Origin: a virus
Lineage: Duplodnaviria; Heunggongvirae; Uroviricota; Caudoviricetes
IMG/VR virus record: IMGVR_UViG_2534682159_000005
Coordinates: 1 to 6,238 of that record
DNA length: 6,238 nucleotides
Reading direction: 5' to 3' (one strand)
Both the position numbers and the translations under genes were made by a program. Below, piece after piece: positions 1 to 6,238 of the stretch. A model generated the notes under the pieces. It had not been told where the DNA came from and did not search any database. It saw nothing but the letters and a program-made list of their open reading frames with translations. Position 1 is the first letter of the stretch. Each line of letters begins with the position of its first letter.

Positions 1-324
1 GTCCACCAGATACTGGCTGGCCACGTACAATATTGATTTCATCAAACTGCTCATCGTCCATTAACAACCCCGCGTGCGTCAGCGCATCCAGCGGTGCTTT
101 CAGAATATTGTCCAGGTCACGGCGGCGCTTATCCGGTGGCTCTGCAATAATTTTTATTGCCAGCCGTCCGGACAGGCTTAATTTCAGTCGCTGCTGGCGA
201 ACAATAAGCGCCACTGCCCGGCGATAACCGCTCCCCGGCTTTTGATACAAAAATATGTGCTGCCACGGCGTCGCCAGTAAGTGTTCACCGTCGGCGGGTA
301 AGGTAAAACCAAATCTATGAGCAT
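1..324 (-). pseudogene. rusA: RusA-family Holliday-junction resolvase, reading frame apparently broken by two +1 frameshifts; 3' end runs off the window start
   Basis: Minus-strand ATG at 324-322 preceded by AAGAGG. The N-terminus MLIDLVLPYPPTVNTYWRRRGSTYF resembles the RusA N-terminus (LPWPPSNNRYYR..RG) and this frame stops at TGA 186-184. RusA-like sequence continues in the next frame (FVSKAGER) and then the third frame (YRRAVALIVRQQRLKLSLSGRLAIKIIAEPPDKRRRDLDNILKAPLDALTHAGLLMDDEQFDEINIVRGQPVSGG, open to position 1). This implies an extra base in the T5 run (plus-strand A-run 249-253) and another near 223-228. Confidence 0.55.
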
Positions 325-336
325 CAGTCACCTCTT

Positions 337-1386
337 TTACCCGAGCACGCCAGTCGCAAAGGCGTGATCAAGAAAACGAAAAATTAACTCAATCTGAGAG
401 CCGTACTTTTTCTCAAACTCCTGCGGGTCTGCATGAAGTTCGTTGTGGTGCTCCCGGCACAACGGTAGCGTGAAAATATCGTGGGCCTTTGTTCCCATTC
501 CCCCCTGACCATGACCAATCAGGTGATGCGGATCGTCAGCTGGCTTACCACAACACGCACACGGCTGTGTCTTTACCCAGCGCGTGTATTTCTCATTAAC
601 CCAACGGCGACGTTTAGGCCGCCTCATGAACGATTCAGGAGACTCCGGATCAACGGCGATACTGACAACCGTTTTTTTCTGTGGTGGATTTTGTTGCTGG
701 TGGACGTGAAGTGGCAGCGCAATATTTTTTGTGCGCTGCTTCAGTATGCTGATGGCTGTCTGTTCTCCCGGTACGATGTCACTCTCACGGTATACGGAGC
801 GGATTTTTTCCGCTGGTAATCCCAGCGAACGACGCGCTACTGCCTCAGGTAGTGCATCCACCACCTGATTGCAGGCCGCCCACCAGGATAATTCGGCCAG
901 CGATAACTCCCTCTCCTGCGTACCGCTTATTGCGTGACGGATGACATCAATCATCCAGGCAACCAGATTCTGCTGAGCAAGTTGATCGAGTGATTCTGAT
1001 GTCTGGTCGCGCAGCTGGTTGTCACAGTGCCAGCACAACACCATCGCGCCGGTACCATAACGGTGAATGACTGTTTCGCTGTGATGATAATCGCCGTGTG
1101 GCCACTGGCAGGATTTCACGTGACGTAATAACCAGTCAGACAGTGCACCTGCACCACCTGCTGCACGAATAACCCGCTCATCGCTGAAAAATGGCAGTAA
1201 TGTTTTATCCTCTGCCAGCGGCTGGCGAACGGCAGGAACGACTCCGGACGGCAGACCGCGCATGTTTTTCGGTTCCGGCTCCACCAGCACCCTGCCGCAA
1301 TGAAAAACAGGCCGTGATTCGCGTCCGGGCTTAAGGACCACCAGGCCAAGTTCCGGCACCAGAACAGGTCGAAGTAATACCCGCAC
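337..1386 (-). CDS. ydfU: YdfU-like DUF968 prophage protein (349 aa) with C-terminal Cys/His HNH-like zinc-binding motif
   Basis: 349-aa ORF from GTG at 1386 (GGAGG 4 nt upstream) to TAA at 339-337. The C-terminal motif CACCGKP..DPHHLIGHG..CREHHNELH is typical of DUF968/HNH-like prophage proteins. Length and position beside hokD and a Q-proximal resolvase match the Qin prophage ydfU; the symbol is from recollection, not a search. Confidence 0.75.
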   Translation of the reverse strand: MRVLLRPVLVPELGLVVLKPGRESRPVFHCGRVLVEPEPKNMRGLPSGVVPAVRQPLAEDKTLLPFFSDERVIRAAGGAGALSDWLLRHVKSCQWPHGDYHHSETVIHRYGTGAMVLCWHCDNQLRDQTSESLDQLAQQNLVAWMIDVIRHAISGTQERELSLAELSWWAACNQVVDALPEAVARRSLGLPAEKIRSVYRESDIVPGEQTAISILKQRTKNIALPLHVHQQQNPPQKKTVVSIAVDPESPESFMRRPKRRRWVNEKYTRWVKTQPCACCGKPADDPHHLIGHGQGGMGTKAHDIFTLPLCREHHNELHADPQEFEKKYGSQIELIFRFLDHAFATGVLG

Positions 1387-1387
1387 G

Positions 1388-1660
1388 TTACCTCCAGATA
1401 CGTTGCTGGAATGTGCGGGACGGACGCGGTGGATGTTCGGAATAAGGGAGCCTGACAGAGATTATCCAGTGACGATAATCGAGGCTGATGGCTTTCTTAA
1501 CCTCGTATCCGCGCCTGCGGTAACACTGAATCAGCCATTCGGCCTGTTCTTCAGTGCATGGGGGATGCTGGTACCAGTCGGTTTTAAATACGTGCGAATG
1601 CCGCCCCCGCTTAATGGCCGGGACGGCTTCAGAATTGTGGGATTTTATACGTTGCGCCAT
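1388..1660 (-). CDS. Small prophage protein of unknown function (90 aa from ATG 1660; the ORF extends to GTG at 1678)
   Basis: ATG at 1660-1658 preceded by GGAGAA with 4-nt spacing. The stop TAA 1390-1388 sits 1 nt before the ydfU-like GTG start, and the GGAGG for that gene lies in its last codons. Occupies the slot that rem holds next to hokD/ydfU in the Qin prophage, but the sequence identity is not verified. Confidence 0.55.
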   Translation of the reverse strand: MAQRIKSHNSEAVPAIKRGRHSHVFKTDWYQHPPCTEEQAEWLIQCYRRRGYEVKKAISLDYRHWIISVRLPYSEHPPRPSRTFQQRIWR

Positions 1661-1710
1661 CGGGTTCTCCGGTGACACAGCAGGTGCCAGTTGTTCAGGC
1701 CGGCGTGCGA

Positions 1711-1740
1711 ATTGTAAACCAGAATGCCAGGAAAAAACAA
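1711..1740 (-). promoter_or_regulatory. Candidate sigma70 promoter for the 90-aa/ydfU-like/rusA transcription unit
   Basis: Minus strand TTGTTT (1740-1735), 18-nt spacer, TACAAT (1716-1711), about 50 nt upstream of ATG 1660. The -35 is weak and overlaps the U-tract of the hokD terminator. Confidence 0.2.
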
Positions 1741-1758
1741 AACCCGCAGAAGCGGGTT
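1731..1758 (-). terminator. Rho-independent terminator downstream of hokD
   Basis: Minus strand AACCCGC-TTCT-GCGGGTT followed by TTGTTTTTT (7-bp GC-rich stem, 4-nt loop, U-tract). On the plus strand the same hairpin has no following T-run, so it is oriented for minus-strand transcripts. Confidence 0.7.
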
Positions 1759-1761
1759 AAG

Positions 1762-1786
1762 TGCGGGTGCGTTGAGGATGCCTGAC
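1762..1786 (-). promoter_or_regulatory. 3' UTR element complementary to the hok mRNA 5' leader (fbi-like fold-back element)
   Basis: Plus-strand 1761-1777 GTGCGGGTGCGTTGAGG is the inverted repeat of plus-strand 2140-2154 CCTCAAGCACCCGCA (15 of 16 with one bulge, extendable to about 25 nt with mismatches). Both lie inside the predicted hokD transcript. Confidence 0.45.
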
Positions 1787-1797
1787 ACATCAGAGGT

Positions 1798-1819
1798 GGC
1801 GAGGGATTTCTCCCTCGCC
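1798..1819 (-). other. Perfect 9-bp stem hairpin with tetraloop immediately 3' of the hokD stop codon
   Basis: Minus strand GGCGAGGGA-GAAA-TCCCTCGCC begins 8 nt after the hokD stop. No U-tract follows, so it is more likely an mRNA structural or stability element than a terminator. Confidence 0.4.
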
Positions 1820-1826
1820 GGGTCTC

Positions 1827-1982
1827 TTACTTCTCAGATTCGTAAGCTGTGAAGACAGCGACCTCCGTCTGGCCGGTTCGGATTCGTACCTCGCAGAGGT
1901 CTTTCCTCGTTACCAGTACCGTTACAACGACGGTAATACAGATGACGATCAGGGCGATTAGCATCGCCTTTTGCTGCTTCAT
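1827..1982 (-). CDS. hokD: Hok/Gef family type I toxin (51 aa), HokD/RelF-like
   Basis: MKQQKAMLIALIVICITVVVTVLVTRKDLCEVRIRTGQTEVAVFTAYESEK: single transmembrane helix followed by the conserved RKDLCEVRIR..EVAVF..YE Hok signature, near-identical in pattern to HokD of E. coli K-12 as I recall it. ATG at 1982-1980 with AGGAG 8 nt upstream. The track ORF (1827..2039) extends 19 codons upstream in frame, probably not used. Confidence 0.85.
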   Translation of the reverse strand: MKQQKAMLIALIVICITVVVTVLVTRKDLCEVRIRTGQTEVAVFTAYESEK

Positions 1983-1995
1983 AGCCTGCTGCTCC

Positions 1996-2024
1996 TTGCC
2001 TTTCGGCGCATAAGAGGCTAATCT
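1996..2024 (+). promoter_or_regulatory. Candidate antisense promoter at the hok start region (possible Sok-like antisense RNA)
   Basis: Plus strand TTGCCT (1996-2001), 17-nt spacer, TAATCT (2019-2024). It would drive a transcript antisense to the hok leader (about 2031 onward). No clean terminator was found, so this is weakly supported. Confidence 0.2.
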
Positions 2025-2130
2025 AAGTGTGCAAGTCATAGATATGGCCTCAGATTAATGTTAAGCGTCCTGCAAGACGCATAATGTTAACTGGGGCTTT
2101 TCTCTGTCTGCCTTACGTCGGCATGCCCGA

Positions 2131-2154
2131 GGCAGACAGCCTCAAGCACCCGCA
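2131..2154 (-). promoter_or_regulatory. 5' leader element of hokD mRNA complementary to the 3' UTR (tac-like fold-back element)
   Basis: Minus-strand leader TGCGGGTGCTTGAGG (2154-2140) pairs with the 3' UTR segment at 1762-1777. It lies just downstream of the candidate -10 TAGAAT and is followed by a 9-bp stem hairpin (2139-2104). Confidence 0.45.
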
Positions 2155-2157
2155 GCA

Positions 2158-2185
2158 ATTCTACTTAACTCTTCTTTCCCCGCAA
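2158..2185 (-). promoter_or_regulatory. Candidate sigma70 promoter for the hokD mRNA
   Basis: Minus strand TTGCGG (2185-2180), 16-nt spacer, TAGAAT (2163-2158). The predicted start near 2151 coincides with the 5' complementary element and gives a transcript of about 420 nt to the terminator at 1731, the size typical of hok mRNAs. Confidence 0.4.
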
Positions 2186-2192
2186 ACCGTTT

Positions 2193-2276
2193 TTATCCCC
2201 AGCGGCAAATCGAATACACCACCAGCGCCACCGCCATTGCAATTCCTACCGTTATGAACGCTTCAGGCCAGGTCAT
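2193..2276 (-). CDS. 27-aa hydrophobic single-helix peptide, translationally coupled to the upstream 171-aa gene (absent from the ORF track because of its size)
   Basis: MTWPEAFITVGIAMAVALVVYSICRWG. The ATG at 2276-2274 overlaps the TGA stop of the 171-aa gene (ATGA). It has a hydrophobic core with a basic/aromatic C-terminus and a TAA stop at 2195-2193. Confidence 0.45.
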   Translation of the reverse strand: MTWPEAFITVGIAMAVALVVYSICRWG

Positions 2277-2788
2277 CGTAAAATATTCTCCTCGTTTATC
2301 AGTCCGTTTCGCTTCAGGTAGTCCATCGCCTTATCCGGTAATTTGCAGTCCGGCTTCGCTTTTTTCAGTTGGCTGACCAGCCGTTTAACCCACATTGCTA
2401 ATTCGCTAACCTGATTGCCGGATGCTGGTGGATTGTCGGCTTTACCCAGAATGGCAGCACAGCAGGCCTCTCTGAGCACCCAGTCAACAGCATCCTTCCA
2501 TGCTCCTGTTTCGACTGGCGGATTCTCACGCTTTACCTGTTCATAAAAGCGCACAGCTTTAACCAGTCCTTCTGATGTCACCGGGACTGGCGGGCCGATG
2601 AATAAGGCCTGAATTTCATAGTTCGGCCTGTCGTTACAATCCTCTTTTGTCGGTACATATTTCCAGTCACCAGCCCACTGCTTCCCCTGAAAGTCTGTAA
2701 CGTCTTTTTTCACGTAGCGATATCGCCATGCAACTGGTTTTGCCTGCCCTGCCGTTTCATGCCCTTCCTGATAATTAATCTCGCTCAT
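2273..2788 (-). CDS. Hypothetical prophage protein (171 aa)
   Basis: ATG at 2788-2786 overlaps the stop of the upstream 58-aa gene (ATGA). Trp/Tyr-rich N-terminal half and a CC pair; no family recognised. Confidence 0.7.
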   Translation of the reverse strand: MSEINYQEGHETAGQAKPVAWRYRYVKKDVTDFQGKQWAGDWKYVPTKEDCNDRPNYEIQALFIGPPVPVTSEGLVKAVRFYEQVKRENPPVETGAWKDAVDWVLREACCAAILGKADNPPASGNQVSELAMWVKRLVSQLKKAKPDCKLPDKAMDYLKRNGLINEENILR

Positions 2789-2961
2789 TCATCGCCCCAC
2801 TCATCACAATATGCTTCGACCGGAGTTTTTCCTGCTTCATAGTCATCACGCCATGCTTCAGCATCGGCGGCACTTCCACCACGTAACTCTGCATAGTCCA
2901 TTAACAGTTCATGCCATTCTTCAAAACTGACGTTGTATTTAGTTGAACCAAAATCAGCCAT
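2785..2961 (-). CDS. Small acidic protein (58 aa), absent from the ORF track
   Basis: MADFGSTKYNVSFEEWHELLMDYAELRGGSAADAEAWRDDYEAGKTPVEAYCDEWGDE. ATG at 2961-2959 with AGGA 8 nt upstream. Its start overlaps the end of the 60-aa gene by 8 nt and its TGA stop overlaps the ATG of the 171-aa gene. Confidence 0.5.
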   Translation of the reverse strand: MADFGSTKYNVSFEEWHELLMDYAELRGGSAADAEAWRDDYEAGKTPVEAYCDEWGDE

Positions 2962-3136
2962 TTTGTTCTTCCTCTTCGTCTTTTATTTCGTGATATGAGT
3001 AATTGCAGTAGTTAAAGAAAATTTCTTTTGCTTCGTCATGAATTTCATCAGGTGTTGCGTCATCGTCCACTTCGAATACATCCTCAAAATCTCCACCGGC
3101 TATTCCCGTTTCAATAATTATTTTGAACTTTCGCAT
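2954..3136 (-). CDS. Small highly acidic protein (60 aa), AT-rich gene
   Basis: MRKFKIIIETGIAGGDFEDVFEVDDDATPDEIHDEAKEIFFNYCNYSYHEIKDEEEEQNG. It is the first ATG in frame after an upstream stop. GC content is visibly lower than the flanking genes, and a 92-bp intergenic region with a palindrome lies upstream. Confidence 0.6.
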   Translation of the reverse strand: MRKFKIIIETGIAGGDFEDVFEVDDDATPDEIHDEAKEIFFNYCNYSYHEIKDEEEEQNG

Positions 3137-3208
3137 TTCATTACCGCCCTGCCGGGCGGTCTCCTGATGTTCTGAGGGTGCAGAAATCCCTCCTGTTAAG
3201 GATTAATT

Positions 3209-3223
3209 TTTAGCAGTGCTAAA
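3209..3223. promoter_or_regulatory. 15-bp palindrome TTTAGCA-G-TGCTAAA in an AT-rich intergenic region (candidate operator/promoter element)
   Basis: Perfect 7-bp arms around one central base, in the 92-bp gap between the 118-aa gene stop (3229) and the 60-aa gene start (3136). Flanked by A/T-rich sequence with -10-like hexamers (TAAAAT). Confidence 0.35.
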
Positions 3224-3228
3224 TTTAA

Positions 3229-3585
3229 TTATTCAGTTCTGGATTTTGTCGCCCTGCGTATCCGCGCTTTCGCGTTACGCTCAATCTGAATTAGCTTTCC
3301 TATATTTTTTCGCCTTTCCTGTTCCTCCAGGCGCAATAGCTTTACATCATCTGCCAGTCTGGTTTCTCTTTTCGCCACAGAGAGCATCCAGTCAAACGGC
3401 TCCACAACTGAACCGCAGATTTTACAGCGGACCTGACGCTCTTTTTCGTCAACCCGAACAGAGGCGTGATGACAATATGGTCTTTCCGATGGCTCATAAA
3501 GAAAATTAACCTGATTACGAGGGTCATCCTCTTTTACCGGAAATAAAACGATATTGCTTAACTCATCCTCTGGTTTTATTTCCAT
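3229..3585 (-). CDS. Zinc-ribbon protein with basic coiled-coil tail (118 aa), function unknown
   Basis: ATG at 3585-3583 with AAGGAGAGGAG just upstream. C-x-H-H ... C-K-I-C-G spacing suggests a zinc ribbon, and the C-terminus is Arg/Lys/Glu-rich. Overlaps the end of the upstream gene by 23 nt. Confidence 0.7.
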   Translation of the reverse strand: MEIKPEDELSNIVLFPVKEDDPRNQVNFLYEPSERPYCHHASVRVDEKERQVRCKICGSVVEPFDWMLSVAKRETRLADDVKLLRLEEQERRKNIGKLIQIERNAKARIRRATKSRTE

Positions 3586-4024
3586 GCTCCTCTCCTTTGA
3601 TGCGAATGCCAGCGACGCGTAATGCGTGTTCTAGGTCAATCAGGTAAAGCCAACTGCCATTTTCTTTAGGTATCATGACTTGTCGCTCATCTGCATTTAT
3701 CGGGTGTCCATATCGAAGGTCGTAGCGAGTCGGTAATTGAACTTCCCGCGCTTCCAGTTCAGCAATGCGCTTACTCCCATCCGAGATAACACCTTCGTAA
3801 TACTCACGTTGCTCGTTGAGTTGTGATTTTGCTTCTTCCAGTCCATCCAGCAAATCAGCGATAATATCCGCTTCCCGATGACGGATGTGACGCTTAAACG
3901 CAGCAAGAGCCGCATCACAATCCCGTTCAGCATTTGGGCTGTCCGGGATAGCCTGATACCACGCCAGCGTCGACTGATAGTTTTGTGCTGCCTCACGAAG
4001 CGCCTCATAGTTAACCTCTCTCAT
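3563..4024 (-). CDS. Ea22-like (ead/Ea22-like family) coiled-coil prophage protein (153 aa)
   Basis: The ATG at 4024-4022 overlaps the TGA stop of the DUF4406 gene (ATGA). The N-terminal NYEALREAA and central AELEAREV coiled-coil segment resemble Ea22-like prophage proteins; assignment is from memory. Confidence 0.65.
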   Translation of the reverse strand: MREVNYEALREAAQNYQSTLAWYQAIPDSPNAERDCDAALAAFKRHIRHREADIIADLLDGLEEAKSQLNEQREYYEGVISDGSKRIAELEAREVQLPTRYDLRYGHPINADERQVMIPKENGSWLYLIDLEHALRVAGIRIKGEEHGNKTRG

Positions 4025-4317
4025 TGAGCCACCTCCTGATAAATCACCGCATGCCCCAGTTTCTCCGCCAGTGCCAGCTCTGCCTTAGCACCCGCTGACC
4101 GCTGCCAGCCATTCAGCATGTAAATCGCATCCACACAACGAATCATTGCCATGCAAATATCCATGTAGTGCGGCTGTGTCAGCCCGTCCGGAAGTACTGC
4201 CGGGTTTAAGACGGTATGCCCTTCCCGTTTCAGTGCTTCTTCCGCCCTGTGAAATGCCTCGCGGTTGAAATTTTCATATCCCGTCATTGGACCGGCGATA
4301 TAAATTCTCACCCTCAC
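4021..4317 (-). CDS. DUF4406 protein (nucleoside 2-deoxyribosyltransferase-like fold), 98 aa
   Basis: MRVRIYIAGPMTG..FNREAFHRAEEALKREGHTVLNPA..YMDICMAMIRCVDAIYMLNGWQRSAGAKAELALAEKLGHAV matches the DUF4406 signature (IAGPMTG, NPA, LxGWxxSxGA). The GTG start at 4317-4315 has AGGAGG 8 nt upstream and overlaps the TGA stop of the HTH gene (GTGA). Confidence 0.85.
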   Translation of the reverse strand: MRVRIYIAGPMTGYENFNREAFHRAEEALKREGHTVLNPAVLPDGLTQPHYMDICMAMIRCVDAIYMLNGWQRSAGAKAELALAEKLGHAVIYQEVAQ

Positions 4318-4595
4318 GCCTGAACCCTCCTGTCGAAATAAACGTAGTTATTCACTATGCGCAGCGGCATGCCTAATTTTCTGGCAATTTCCCTTCTTTG
4401 CATGCCTCTCTGATGCAGTTGCCGCGCCAGCTCAATATCACGCTGAGAATATTTTGCCGACGGGTGAAAATCACCACGTAACATCATGCTGATGCCCAGC
4501 TCCCGTGCCTTCGTTCTCACTGCCGCTTCAGTTCGTCCGATAAGTGCGCCAATGCTTTTTACCTTCATCGTTCCCGCACACTGCCGGAGTATCAT
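4314..4595 (-). CDS. Small helix-turn-helix DNA-binding protein (about 93 aa); start uncertain
   Basis: Two HTH-like segments (KSIGALIGRTEAAVRTKARELGI and MQRREIARKLGMPLRIVNNYV, the second resembling NinH/Fis-type HTH). The track ORF starts at 4718 inside the upstream gene. Candidate starts are ATG 4595, ATG 4568, or GTG 4631 (which overlaps the upstream TGA stop). Confidence 0.55.
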   Translation of the reverse strand: MILRQCAGTMKVKSIGALIGRTEAAVRTKARELGISMMLRGDFHPSAKYSQRDIELARQLHQRGMQRREIARKLGMPLRIVNNYVYFDRRVQA

Positions 4596-4627
4596 GATTT
4601 CCGCCCGGCACCACGTCTTCCACCCAC

Positions 4628-5344
4628 TCACCGCTGCTGTTCTCTGGTGGCGGTAATATCCCGGAGAATATCCCGGCACTTGTTCAGCTCCCGCAGCGCG
4701 GCGCAGACTCGCTCCCACTTCTGAACCTGACCTTTTGCCCGGCGCAGCTCGCGGTTAGCCACATGCAGCGATGGTAGAATCAGGTCATCTGCTTTCGTTT
4801 CGGTGACCGATGGCTGTAACTTCACAATGTCTTCCACGATTTCTGTTTTCATTTCTTCCTGTGTCGTCGTTTCCTGGACTGGTAACGCAACACCTGCTGG
4901 CTGAGGAAAGGCTTTACCATCGGTTTCCGCTACGGATGCAGCTTCCGGCTCTGCCGGTAAATCAGCGCCCGGTATGCAGTAACGAAATTTACCGCCCTGA
5001 TTCACGCGAATCAGACGCCCTTTGCTGATTGCCATGGCCAGCGATGAATTCGCCCGGCGGGAGGTAATCCCGAACATCAGTGCCAGCTCATCCGCCGTTT
5101 GTGGGCCATGTTGTTCAATCGCCTCAGTCAGCATTTGCGCTGTCACTTTCGGTACCGGTGACACTGGTTCACTTTCACCTGCCTGAGTCAGCCACCACAT
5201 CGACCCCTTGTTATCCGCTTCACCACGGCGCTTCAGTTTCCACAGTTCGTTGACCGCATCTTCACGGCTGATTCCAAGGCGGGCCGCCACTACCTGTGAA
5301 GAGGCTCTTTTCAGTGCTTTCAGTGCGTCAAATACGGTTTCCAT
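4628..5344 (-). CDS. Prophage protein with two winged-helix-like domains and an acidic linker (238 aa)
   Basis: The track ORF starts at TTG 5362, but ATG 5344-5342 has GGAGG 8 nt upstream. Two HTH-like segments ([25 protein letters not shown] and [31 protein letters not shown]). Sits 33 nt downstream of the P-like gene, the slot occupied by ren in lambda. Confidence 0.7.
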
Positions 5345-5377
5345 TAAAATTTCCTCCGACAAAATCGTTTCCCAGAT

Positions 5378-6040
5378 TCAAATAAAACCAGCAGCCTTCC
5401 GGCGTTCGTATTCCTGTTTCAGCCGTTCAATTGGCGTTGGCCCTTTCGGGTGTTTCGCCCCTTCCAGTTGTCGTCGCACTGGCGGAACACTCATCCCGTT
5501 ACCAACATGCTTTGCCCATTTCGTCAGTTGCCGTTCCGCAAGTCGTTTTAACTCACCCTGCGTCATCTGGCGCTCAATCCCTCTGGTACGCATTTCGAGG
5601 CAGATGTGGTACAGCACAGGCTGTGGCCACGGGTATTTATCACTCCCGTCGTATCGCCAGGATTCATTGCGCCAGCGCCGGTACTCTTCCATCACGGCAT
5701 CCACCGTAAGACCAAATGGATTTGCCCCACTCTCCGAAATCAGCGCAACAAACTCAGCCAGGTCCGGGGGCCACGTTTCACCCGCCCGGCAGCGGTCCAT
5801 GCACTGACGACAGACCTGCCGGATTTGCTGTTCAGTCATCGCACCAATCTGGGCAATCCAGAGCTTCGAAGGTGCGGCCCCGTTCTTCTGAGTCCAGCGG
5901 TTCGAATACACCTCCCCCATAAGCTCCCACAGCTTCCAGGCCGTTTCCGTTGCTGATAAATCCGTTTTCACGTTCCCACTGTTCGCGTGCTGCCCGGATT
6001 TCCTGAACTGCCCGTGATGCCGTGCCACCTGATGCTGCAT
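5378..6040 (-). CDS. Lambda P-like replication protein (DnaB helicase loader); N-terminal boundary uncertain
   Basis: The C-terminal two thirds align by motif with lambda P (P..FVA.. segment, then YPW...Y...M....T..EL.R.A..L). ATG 6040 has AGGGGG 6 nt upstream, and an alternative ATG at 5920 has GGGAG upstream. The 5' 209 nt overlap the upstream gene in another frame. Confidence 0.7.
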
Positions 6041-6238
6041 GGCTTACCCCCTTGCTGACTGGTTTTACCTGTGCCCTGACGTGCTGCACGTGACGGGCAA
6101 ATTTCTGCTCCCACTGAACCTGCGTGAAAACCTTCCCCTCCGCCATCCAGTAATCCCGGAATGCGGCAAGCTCAGCAGGTGTAAATTCCGGCTCAGGCAG
6201 AGCCATACCCCACACTGCTGCCCGTTGTCGAAAATCCG
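5832..6238 (-). CDS. Replication initiator / replisome organiser with DnaT-like C-terminal domain (partial; 5' end beyond the window)
   Basis: The frame is open to the window edge. [42 protein letters not shown] closely parallels the E. coli DnaT C-terminal domain ([41 protein letters not shown]) as I recall it. It lies immediately upstream of the P-like gene, the position of O. Confidence 0.7.

What the first reader, a model, noticed from the sequence alone, without database searches (positions are those of the whole stretch)
184..324. RusA-family resolvase gene disrupted by two single-base insertions
RusA-like sequence runs through three successive reading frames: frame 1 up to codon 25, frame 2 for FVSKAGER, then frame 3 from YRRAVALIV to the window edge. 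The original frame ends at a TGA after 46 codons. Both apparent insertions are T residues, one in a T5 homopolymer. This is either an inactivated cryptic-prophage resolvase or a homopolymer sequencing error.
Basis: partly seen in the sequence, partly recalled or inferred. Interest (0 to 1): 0.4.

Follow-up and report, generated by a model that had tools for sequence, protein, structure and literature searches.

The report
Probable sequencing-error frameshifts in prophage rusA
A phage-borne RusA DNA-junction-cutting enzyme gene looks broken by two extra bases, but the window is the end of a short 454-sequenced draft contig and every related sequence has the gene intact, so this is most likely a sequencing error.

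Summary
On the minus strand, a RusA-family gene starts at ATG 324-322 and runs through three reading frames. The original frame stops after 46 codons.

Compared with intact relatives, there are exactly two extra bases:
- a T in a T4 run, making T5 (+ strand A5, 249-253);

The window is the whole 6,238-base contig AFDQ01000024.1 of the E. coli O91:H21 strain B2F1 draft genome. That draft was made with 454 Titanium reads and the Celera assembler. The gene lies at the contig end, and both extra bases are within 253 bases of it.

A contig from another O91:H21 HUS isolate matches all 6,238 bases with no substitutions and only these two gaps. Every fully aligned best match listed from the 5,426 complete E. 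coli genomes is two bases shorter, and every related contig examined has rusA intact. The frameshifted product is a singleton among about 15 billion proteins.

Insertions that increase towards read ends are the commonest 454 error. Best explanation: a sequencing or assembly artefact (about 0.8). A real B2F1-specific pseudogene is possible (about 0.17). Either way it is ordinary.

The parts
1..324 (-). rusA (RusA-family Holliday-junction resolvase gene) as deposited. It reads through three frames and is cut at the contig end after codon 107 of about 120.
   Evidence: translations; alignment to intact rusA; Pfam PF05866; PDB 1Q8R.
250..324 (-). Codons 1-25 in the native frame (MLIDLVLPYPPTVNTYWRRRGSTYF), starting at ATG 324-322.
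   Evidence: Identical to the intact protein WP_000904150.1.
249..253 (-). First extra base: T5 run on the gene strand (A5 on the + strand). All intact relatives have T4.
228..229 (-). Second extra base: GG on the gene strand (CC on the + strand). All intact relatives have a single G (codon CGT or CGC, Arg33).
184..186 (-). TGA that ends the shifted original frame after 46 codons.
1..227 (-). Frame-3 segment that encodes the native RusA residues from Tyr34 onwards. It includes the catalytic Asp69, Asp71 and Asp90 and Lys75 (E. coli RusA D70, D72, D91, K76).
   Evidence: (40.8 bits alone; gap-free alignment to 1Q8R; 2H8C is the D70N mutant chain).
325..336 (-). Ribosome-binding region: AAGAGG at 336-331 and a 6-nt spacer before ATG 324. 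A GTG at 331-329 opens the frame-3 ORF that GenBank annotated as 'rusA, partial' (EGW70928.1); it overlaps the Shine-Dalgarno sequence.
   Evidence: sequence; 110-aa called product P0001.
1..20 (.). Contig end and mosaic junction. There are six substitutions against the rusA allele of the FWSEC0008 Stx2 prophage, but the bases are identical to the allele that is followed by Q (strain 48, isolate H2).
337..1386 (-). Upstream neighbour: an intact 349-aa DUF968 protein. Its stop codon lies 12 nt before the rusA ATG.
   Evidence: PF06147, 260.7 bits.

Best explanation
The two extra bases are most likely base-calling or consensus errors in a 454 pyrosequencing draft assembly, and not a feature of the B2F1 genome. 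The underlying gene would then be an ordinary, intact, roughly 120-codon rusA in the nin region of a lambdoid Stx2-type prophage, in the order DUF968 - rusA - Q.

Shown: the window is the complete 6,238-nt contig AFDQ01000024.1. rusA sits at the contig end. Both changes are single-base over-calls (T4 to T5, G1 to G2), 21 nt apart and within 253 nt of that end. Everything else in the contig is identical to independent genomes.

Inferred: the last few hundred bases of the contig, next to a repeat or mosaic boundary shared by several prophages, were built from few reads or from error-rich read 3' ends. The over-calls therefore survived into the consensus.
For: 1. Source. One search returned locus L009, the 6,238-nt contig AFDQ01000024.1 of GCA_000225025.2. 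It is 100% identical to the window over the 4,386 nt held. The GenBank product name gives strain B2F1.

2. Method. Steyert et al. 2012 (PMC3491183) state that B2F1 = AFDQ00000000 was sequenced from 3-kb paired-end libraries on 454 Titanium FLX and assembled with Celera v6.0.

3. Closest relative. L017 is JNNJ01000056.1, from O91:H21 HUS isolate 'H2', sequenced independently on Ion PGM and assembled with MIRA. It matches all 6,238 nt with 0 mismatches and exactly 2 gaps, which are the two extra bases. It also has the same rusA-Q mosaic and a 120-aa RusA.

4. Two complete STEC genomes differ from window 21-6238 only by these two gaps.

5. Uniqueness.
- The best match among 5,426 complete E. coli genomes is 99.5%, which corresponds to the two gaps alone.
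- Every listed best place that aligns from the first query base is 2 nt shorter than the query.
- All 10 alleles aligned, at 85-100% identity, lack both bases.
- The 49-mer carrying both insertions is absent from the viral, genome and metagenome collections.
- The 46-aa product is not on record.
- The chimeric frame-3 product is a singleton cluster with one member on one contig, whereas the cluster holding the intact protein has 1,887 members and the exact 120-aa sequence is seen on 1,000 or more contigs.

6. Error type. In 454 Titanium data, insertions are the commonest error (0.54% per base). They are linked to homopolymers and increase towards read 3' ends (Gilles et al. 2011, PMC3116506).

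7. Pattern. There are 2 indels and 0 substitutions in 6,218 nt. By simulation, two randomly placed changes fall within 21 nt of each other and within 253 nt of the same end with probability about 5.5e-4. This points to one local cause.
Against: - No reads or quality values could be inspected, so the error is inferred and not shown.
- All 8 runs of 6 or more bases in the contig, and 24 of the 25 runs of 5 or more, agree with the relatives; the only one that disagrees is the A5 at 249-253. The second change is at a single G. This is not the classic pattern of errors in the longest homopolymers.
- A repeat-derived contig could have had ample coverage.
- Isolate H2 is not shown to be B2F1, so a mutation private to B2F1 is not excluded.
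- The same T run is T3 in another rusA allele in two other assemblies. Length changes there may therefore also occur in nature.
Confidence: 0.8

Rival explanations
1. It is a real, B2F1-specific pseudogene. Two +1 insertions in rusA truncate the product to 46 residues (25 native, 21 out of frame), none of them catalytic. This inactivates a resolvase that established knowledge of RusA and lambdoid nin-region genes treats as dispensable for the prophage.
For: - The deposited sequence is what it is.
- Prophage accessory genes do decay.
- Other frameshifted rusA alleles are on record. T4 to T3 in the same T run occurs in two other assemblies, an ENA metagenome and Logan SRR191994, in a cluster of 19 member sequences. 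G4 to G3 and other indels are implied by P0018, P0020 and P0021.
- A G1-to-G2 over-call surviving into a consensus is not the most typical 454 assembly error.
Against: - There are no substitutions anywhere else in 6.2 kb against three independent genomes. Two independent mutations would both have to fall in one 21-nt stretch, with chance about 0.007 for the spacing alone.
- The variant is unique among all the collections searched.
- The closest isolate, with the same rare mosaic, has an intact gene.
- The site is at the end of a 454 draft contig.
Confidence: 0.17
2. It is a consensus artefact from collapsing diverged rusA paralogues carried by several prophages of the same strain. Misaligned SNP columns would be turned into insertions. 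This is a sub-type of the artefact explanation.
For: - The related genome FWSEC0008 carries at least two rusA copies that are identical over window 21-420 and diverge at 1-20.
- The contig ends exactly at that divergence.
- STEC genomes have up to 8 places matching this stretch.
Against: In 10 alleles spanning 85-100% identity, none has a G at the third position of codon 33; they have CGT or CGC. None has a variant at the T run that would produce T5 through column misalignment. The specific mechanism therefore has no support in this sample.
Confidence: 0.05
3. It is a functional arrangement: programmed +1 ribosomal frameshifting at both sites, or expression of the open frame-3 ORF from GTG 331 as an N-terminally altered RusA.
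For: - Frame 3 is open from GTG 331 to the contig end and was called as a gene (EGW70928.1).
- At the T5 run, P-site tRNA-Phe could re-pair perfectly in the +1 frame (read directly from the sequence).
Against: - The arrangement is not conserved in any other sequence.
- The second site (CGG-T-TAT) offers no re-pairing.
- The GTG at 331 lies inside the Shine-Dalgarno sequence that serves ATG 324, and has none of its own.
- The frame-3 product would replace the conserved N-terminal PxPPxxN segment, which aligns to the solved structure, with unrelated sequence.
Confidence: 0.01

Closest known systems
RusA family crossover junction endodeoxyribonuclease of lambdoid prophages (Pfam PF05866; E. coli DLP12 RusA, PDB 1Q8R and 2H8C)
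   Same: - The repaired translation scores 63.8 bits on PF05866.
- It aligns gap-free to 1Q8R over residues 5-117 (E 1e-24).
- The three catalytic Asp residues and the Lys are conserved.
- The length is about 120 aa.
- It occupies the usual position between a DUF968 gene and the Q antiterminator gene.
   Different: As deposited, the reading frame is broken twice. The only product from the native start is 46 aa long and has no catalytic residues.
WP_000904150.1, the intact 120-aa RusA of E. coli strain 48, FWSEC0008 locus 2 and O91:H21 isolate H2
   Same: The DNA is identical over window 1-420 apart from the two extra bases.
   Different: Two 1-nt insertions in the window (T4 to T5, G to GG).
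Indel errors in 454 pyrosequencing draft assemblies
   Same: - The platform is 454 Titanium.
- Both changes are single-base over-calls with no substitutions.
- Insertions are the commonest 454 error and increase towards read ends.
- The location is near a contig end.
   Different: One of the two sites is not a homopolymer. Longer homopolymers elsewhere in the contig are correct.
Other frameshifted rusA alleles in public assemblies (P0017: T4 to T3; P0018: G4 to G3; P0021 from O55:H7 USDA 5905)
   Same: They have single-base length changes in the same short stretch of the gene. Gene callers likewise pick the open alternative frame that starts at the upstream GTG.
   Different: They involve different alleles and different indels. 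None has the B2F1 pair of insertions. P0017 is seen in two separate data sets, whereas the B2F1 form is a singleton.

Membership tests
RusA (PF05866) Holliday-junction resolvase | Significant match to the family profile above the curated cut-off | tested here: met
   The repaired 120-aa protein scores 63.8 bits against a cut-off of 22.8. The frame-3 segment encoded in the window scores 40.8 bits on its own. The 46-aa product from the native start has no hit.
RusA (PF05866) Holliday-junction resolvase | Full-length homology to experimentally solved RusA | tested here: met
   1Q8R_A at E 9.8e-25, query residues 5-117 against chain residues 6-118, with no gaps.
RusA (PF05866) Holliday-junction resolvase | Catalytic acidic residues (E. 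coli RusA D70, D72, D91; residue roles from my own knowledge of the RusA mutagenesis literature) | tested here: met
   alignment. The query has RRRDLDN and MDDEQ, placing D69, D71 and D90 opposite D70, D72 and D91. The 2H8C chain carries N at position 70, consistent with D70 being the catalytic residue mutated for crystallography. All of these residues lie in the frame-3 segment (window 1-227).
RusA (PF05866) Holliday-junction resolvase | One uninterrupted ORF of about 120 codons that joins the N-terminal strand to the catalytic core | tested here: not met
   In the deposited sequence the native frame stops after 46 codons. This feature is met in every relative examined.
RusA (PF05866) Holliday-junction resolvase | Position in the nin region of a lambdoid prophage, just upstream of the late antiterminator gene | tested here: met
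   DUF968 lies directly upstream in the window. Q lies off the contig, but it follows the identical gene in L017, L001 and L011.
RusA (PF05866) Holliday-junction resolvase | Holliday-junction cleavage activity | not testable with these tools
   This needs biochemistry, or complementation of a ruv mutant.
Sequencing or assembly artefact | The variant is absent from independent sequences of the same or nearest strain | tested here: met
   (isolate H2: 0 mismatches, 2 gaps). Whether H2 is the same strain as B2F1 is not established.
Sequencing or assembly artefact | Reads do not support the consensus at the site | not testable with these tools
   No read data are accessible here.

The most novel reading that the evidence does not exclude
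Both insertions are real in strain B2F1 and arose together, for example in one error-prone repair patch. The resolvase gene of one prophage would then be freshly inactivated while the rest of the early region stays identical to that of functional Stx2 phages.
Probability: 0.15. Interest if true: 0.15.

Novelty: not a real feature. Interest (0 to 1): 0.05.

Why it matters
It matters little biologically. RusA is a well-characterised prophage resolvase, and a frameshift in one draft contig changes nothing about the family.

The practical value is as a caution:
- The GenBank protein EGW70928.1 ('rusA, partial', B2F1) is a chimera. It consists of 33 out-of-frame residues followed by the true C-terminal part.
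- Pseudogene calls from 454-era drafts, especially near contig ends, should not be counted as gene decay without read support.

If the frameshift were real, it would only mean that one B2F1 prophage lacks a resolvase that is regarded as non-essential.

Tried and rejected
1. Exact scans for the 49-mer carrying both insertions in viral, genome and metagenome contigs found nothing. GTDB keeps one genome per species, so the genome scan is a weak test.

2. An exact look-up of the 46-aa truncated product, and of the 45-aa frame-2 ORF and a hypothetical full-length 123-aa chimera, found none on record.

3. Paralogue-collapse hypothesis. I aligned 10 alleles at 85-100% identity, looking for SNPs at the two sites that could be misaligned into insertions. 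None fits. I kept this only as a low-probability sub-variant of the artefact explanation.

4. Programmed frameshifting or a functional frame-3 ORF. Rejected for lack of conservation, the absence of a slippery second site, and the absence of a ribosome-binding site for GTG 331.

5. Dcm or Dam motif-linked basecalling errors, as seen in nanopore data. No CCWGG or GATC motif lies at the two sites, and the platform turned out to be 454 anyway.

6. I looked for a complete genome of B2F1 among the RefSeq complete E. coli genomes. No record carries the window's exact mosaic: the best whole-window matches still differ at bases 1-20. A same-strain finished reference was therefore not available.

7. I checked whether FWSEC0008 is the same strain as B2F1. 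One paper lists them as separate strains that cluster together.

Full report
**What is in the sequence**

All genes in the window lie on the minus strand. A strong ribosome-binding site (AAGAGG, 336-331) sits 6 nt before ATG 324-322 and 12 nt after the stop of a 349-aa DUF968 gene (337-1386).

From that ATG the three frames read as follows:
- Frame 1 gives MLIDLVLPYPPTVNTYWRRRGSTYF, then unrelated residues, then TGA at 186-184. This is a 46-codon ORF.
- Frame 2 carries FVSKAGER.
- Frame 3 carries YRRAVALIV...GQPVSGG and runs to base 1.

**What the gene is**

An intact relative (strain 48, WP_000904150.1, 120 aa) differs from window 1-420 only by lacking two bases.
- The repaired protein matches Pfam RusA (PF05866) at 63.8 bits against a cut-off of 22.8. 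The frame-3 part alone scores 40.8 bits. The 46-aa product has no hit.
- The repaired protein aligns without gaps to the solved E. coli RusA (1Q8R, E 1e-24).
- Asp69, Asp71, Asp90 and Lys75 stand opposite RusA D70, D72, D91 and K76. The catalytic roles come from my own knowledge of the RusA literature; the D70N crystallographic mutant 2H8C appears in the same result.
- All of these residues lie downstream of both shifts. The deposited sequence therefore cannot make an active enzyme from its native start.

**The two extra bases**

- The first turns T4 into T5 on the gene strand (+ strand A5, 249-253).
- The second turns GAGCGTTAT into GAGCGGTTAT (+ strand CC, 228-229).

All 10 intact alleles compared, at 85-100% identity, have CGT or CGC at that codon.

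**Where the window comes from**

Looking up the neighbouring DUF968 protein returned a contig of exactly 6,238 nt. It is AFDQ01000024.1 of GCA_000225025.2 and is identical to the window over the 4,386 nt held. The accession belongs to E. coli O91:H21 strain B2F1. That genome was sequenced from 3-kb paired-end libraries on 454 Titanium FLX and assembled with Celera v6.0 (Steyert et al. 2012, PMC3491183).

So the 'window edge' is a contig end, and the two extra bases lie 228 and 249-253 nt from it.

**Comparison with relatives**

- Window 21-6238 is base-for-base identical to the early region of Stx2 prophages in the complete genomes FWSEC0008 (O91:H21) and MFDS1006657, except for the two extra bases. 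Bases 1-20 carry six substitutions because those phages have a different rusA 3' end, followed by a DUF1133 gene.
- Contig JNNJ01000056.1 (L017) comes from O91:H21 HUS isolate 'H2', sequenced on Ion PGM (PMC4192381). It matches all 6,238 nt with 0 mismatches and exactly two gaps. It continues into a 120-aa RusA and a Q gene.
- Among 5,426 complete E. coli genomes, the best match to window 1-420 is 99.5%, which is the two gaps. Every listed best place that aligns from the first query base is 2 nt shorter than the query.
- The 49-mer with both insertions is absent from the viral, genome and metagenome collections.
- The 46-aa product is not on record.
- GenBank annotated the open frame-3 ORF from GTG 331 as 'rusA, partial' (EGW70928.1). 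That protein is a singleton among about 15 billion sequences. The cluster holding the intact protein has 1,887 members, and the exact 120-aa sequence is seen on 1,000 or more contigs.

**Weighing artefact against real mutation**

For an artefact:
- Both changes are single-base over-calls, and there is not one substitution in 6,218 nt.
- Two randomly placed changes would lie within 21 nt of each other about 0.7% of the time. They would also lie within 253 nt of the same end about 0.06% of the time. One local cause is therefore likely.
- In 454 Titanium reads, insertions are the commonest error. They are tied to homopolymers and rise towards read 3' ends (Gilles et al. 2011, PMC3116506).
- The contig stops at a boundary where prophage copies diverge. 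Consensus is expected to be thinnest at such a place. This last point is inference.

Against an artefact:
- No reads could be inspected.
- All eight runs of 6-7 bases in the contig, and all but one of the 25 runs of 5 or more, agree with the relatives.
- One of the two sites is not a homopolymer.
- Isolate H2 is not proven to be B2F1.
- The same T run is T3 in another rusA allele in two other assemblies. Real slippage there therefore cannot be dismissed.

I put the artefact at about 0.8 and a real strain-specific pseudogene at about 0.17.

**Other readings**

- A paralogue-collapse origin of the insertions found no support among the 10 alleles aligned.
- Programmed frameshifting or a functional frame-3 protein is rejected. 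The arrangement is not conserved anywhere. The second site is not slippery. GTG 331 lies inside the Shine-Dalgarno sequence that serves ATG 324. The chimera would replace the conserved N-terminal segment with unrelated sequence.

**Verdict**

This is an ordinary prophage rusA whose apparent double frameshift is most likely a draft-assembly error. It is of low interest and is not a new biological feature. The useful by-product is that EGW70928.1 should be regarded as a chimeric annotation.

Noticed in passing
window 1-6238: The window is a complete short draft contig (AFDQ01000024.1, E. coli O91:H21 B2F1). It carries the early/nin region of a lambdoid Stx2-type prophage, all on the minus strand. 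The gene order is: DnaT-like (cut), P, DUF1627, DNA-binding, DUF4406, Ead/Ea22-like, several hypothetical genes, DUF7167, Hok, a 90-aa hypothetical, DUF968, rusA.
   Followed up: yes
window 1-20: There is a mosaic junction at the 3' end of rusA. These 20 bases differ at six positions from the FWSEC0008/MFDS1006657 Stx2 prophage allele, which is followed by DUF1133. They are identical to the allele that is followed by Q (strain 48, FWSEC0008 second locus, isolate H2). No complete RefSeq E. coli genome has this exact combination over the whole window.
   Followed up: partly
window 1827-2151 (-): This is a hok/sok type I toxin-antitoxin module. It has a Hok/Gef ORF (51 aa at 1827-1982, with a longer 70-aa call to 2039) and an Rfam sok antitoxin RNA match at 1977-2151 (113 bits against a gathering score of 59).
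   Followed up: partly
window 1-331 (-), frame 3: The alternative frame that starts at GTG 331 contains no stop codon across the whole gene. Gene callers therefore pick it whenever the net shift is +2 or -1. The B2F1 GenBank protein EGW70928.1 ('rusA, partial') is such a chimera, with 33 out-of-frame residues followed by true RusA.
   Followed up: yes
L030:1495-1685 and L031:628-818: A different rusA allele (Z0117-like, ISEEGKRY type) carries T3 instead of T4 in the very same T run. It appears in an ENA metagenome scaffold and in a Logan assembly of SRR191994, in a cluster of 19 member sequences (P0017). This may be a real circulating -1 frameshift allele, or it may be a recurrent error.
   Followed up: partly
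proteins P0018, P0020, P0021, P0022, P0025: These are further rare rusA products that switch frame within the first 60 or so codons. P0018 implies G4 to G3 in GCCGGGGAG. P0021 (O55:H7 USDA 5905) and P0025 imply a -1 near GGCAATAAAAAT. P0020, on a 5.1-Mb contig, has a compensated pair of shifts. Whether these are real was not examined.
   Followed up: no
window 337-1386 (-): The C-terminal part of the DUF968 protein (residues 270-318) gives a sub-threshold match to the putative HNH nuclease family HNHc_6 (23.1 bits against a cut-off of 26.6). It contains Cys/His motifs (CACCGKP...HH, CREHHNELH). This hints at a nuclease directly upstream of the resolvase.
   Followed up: no
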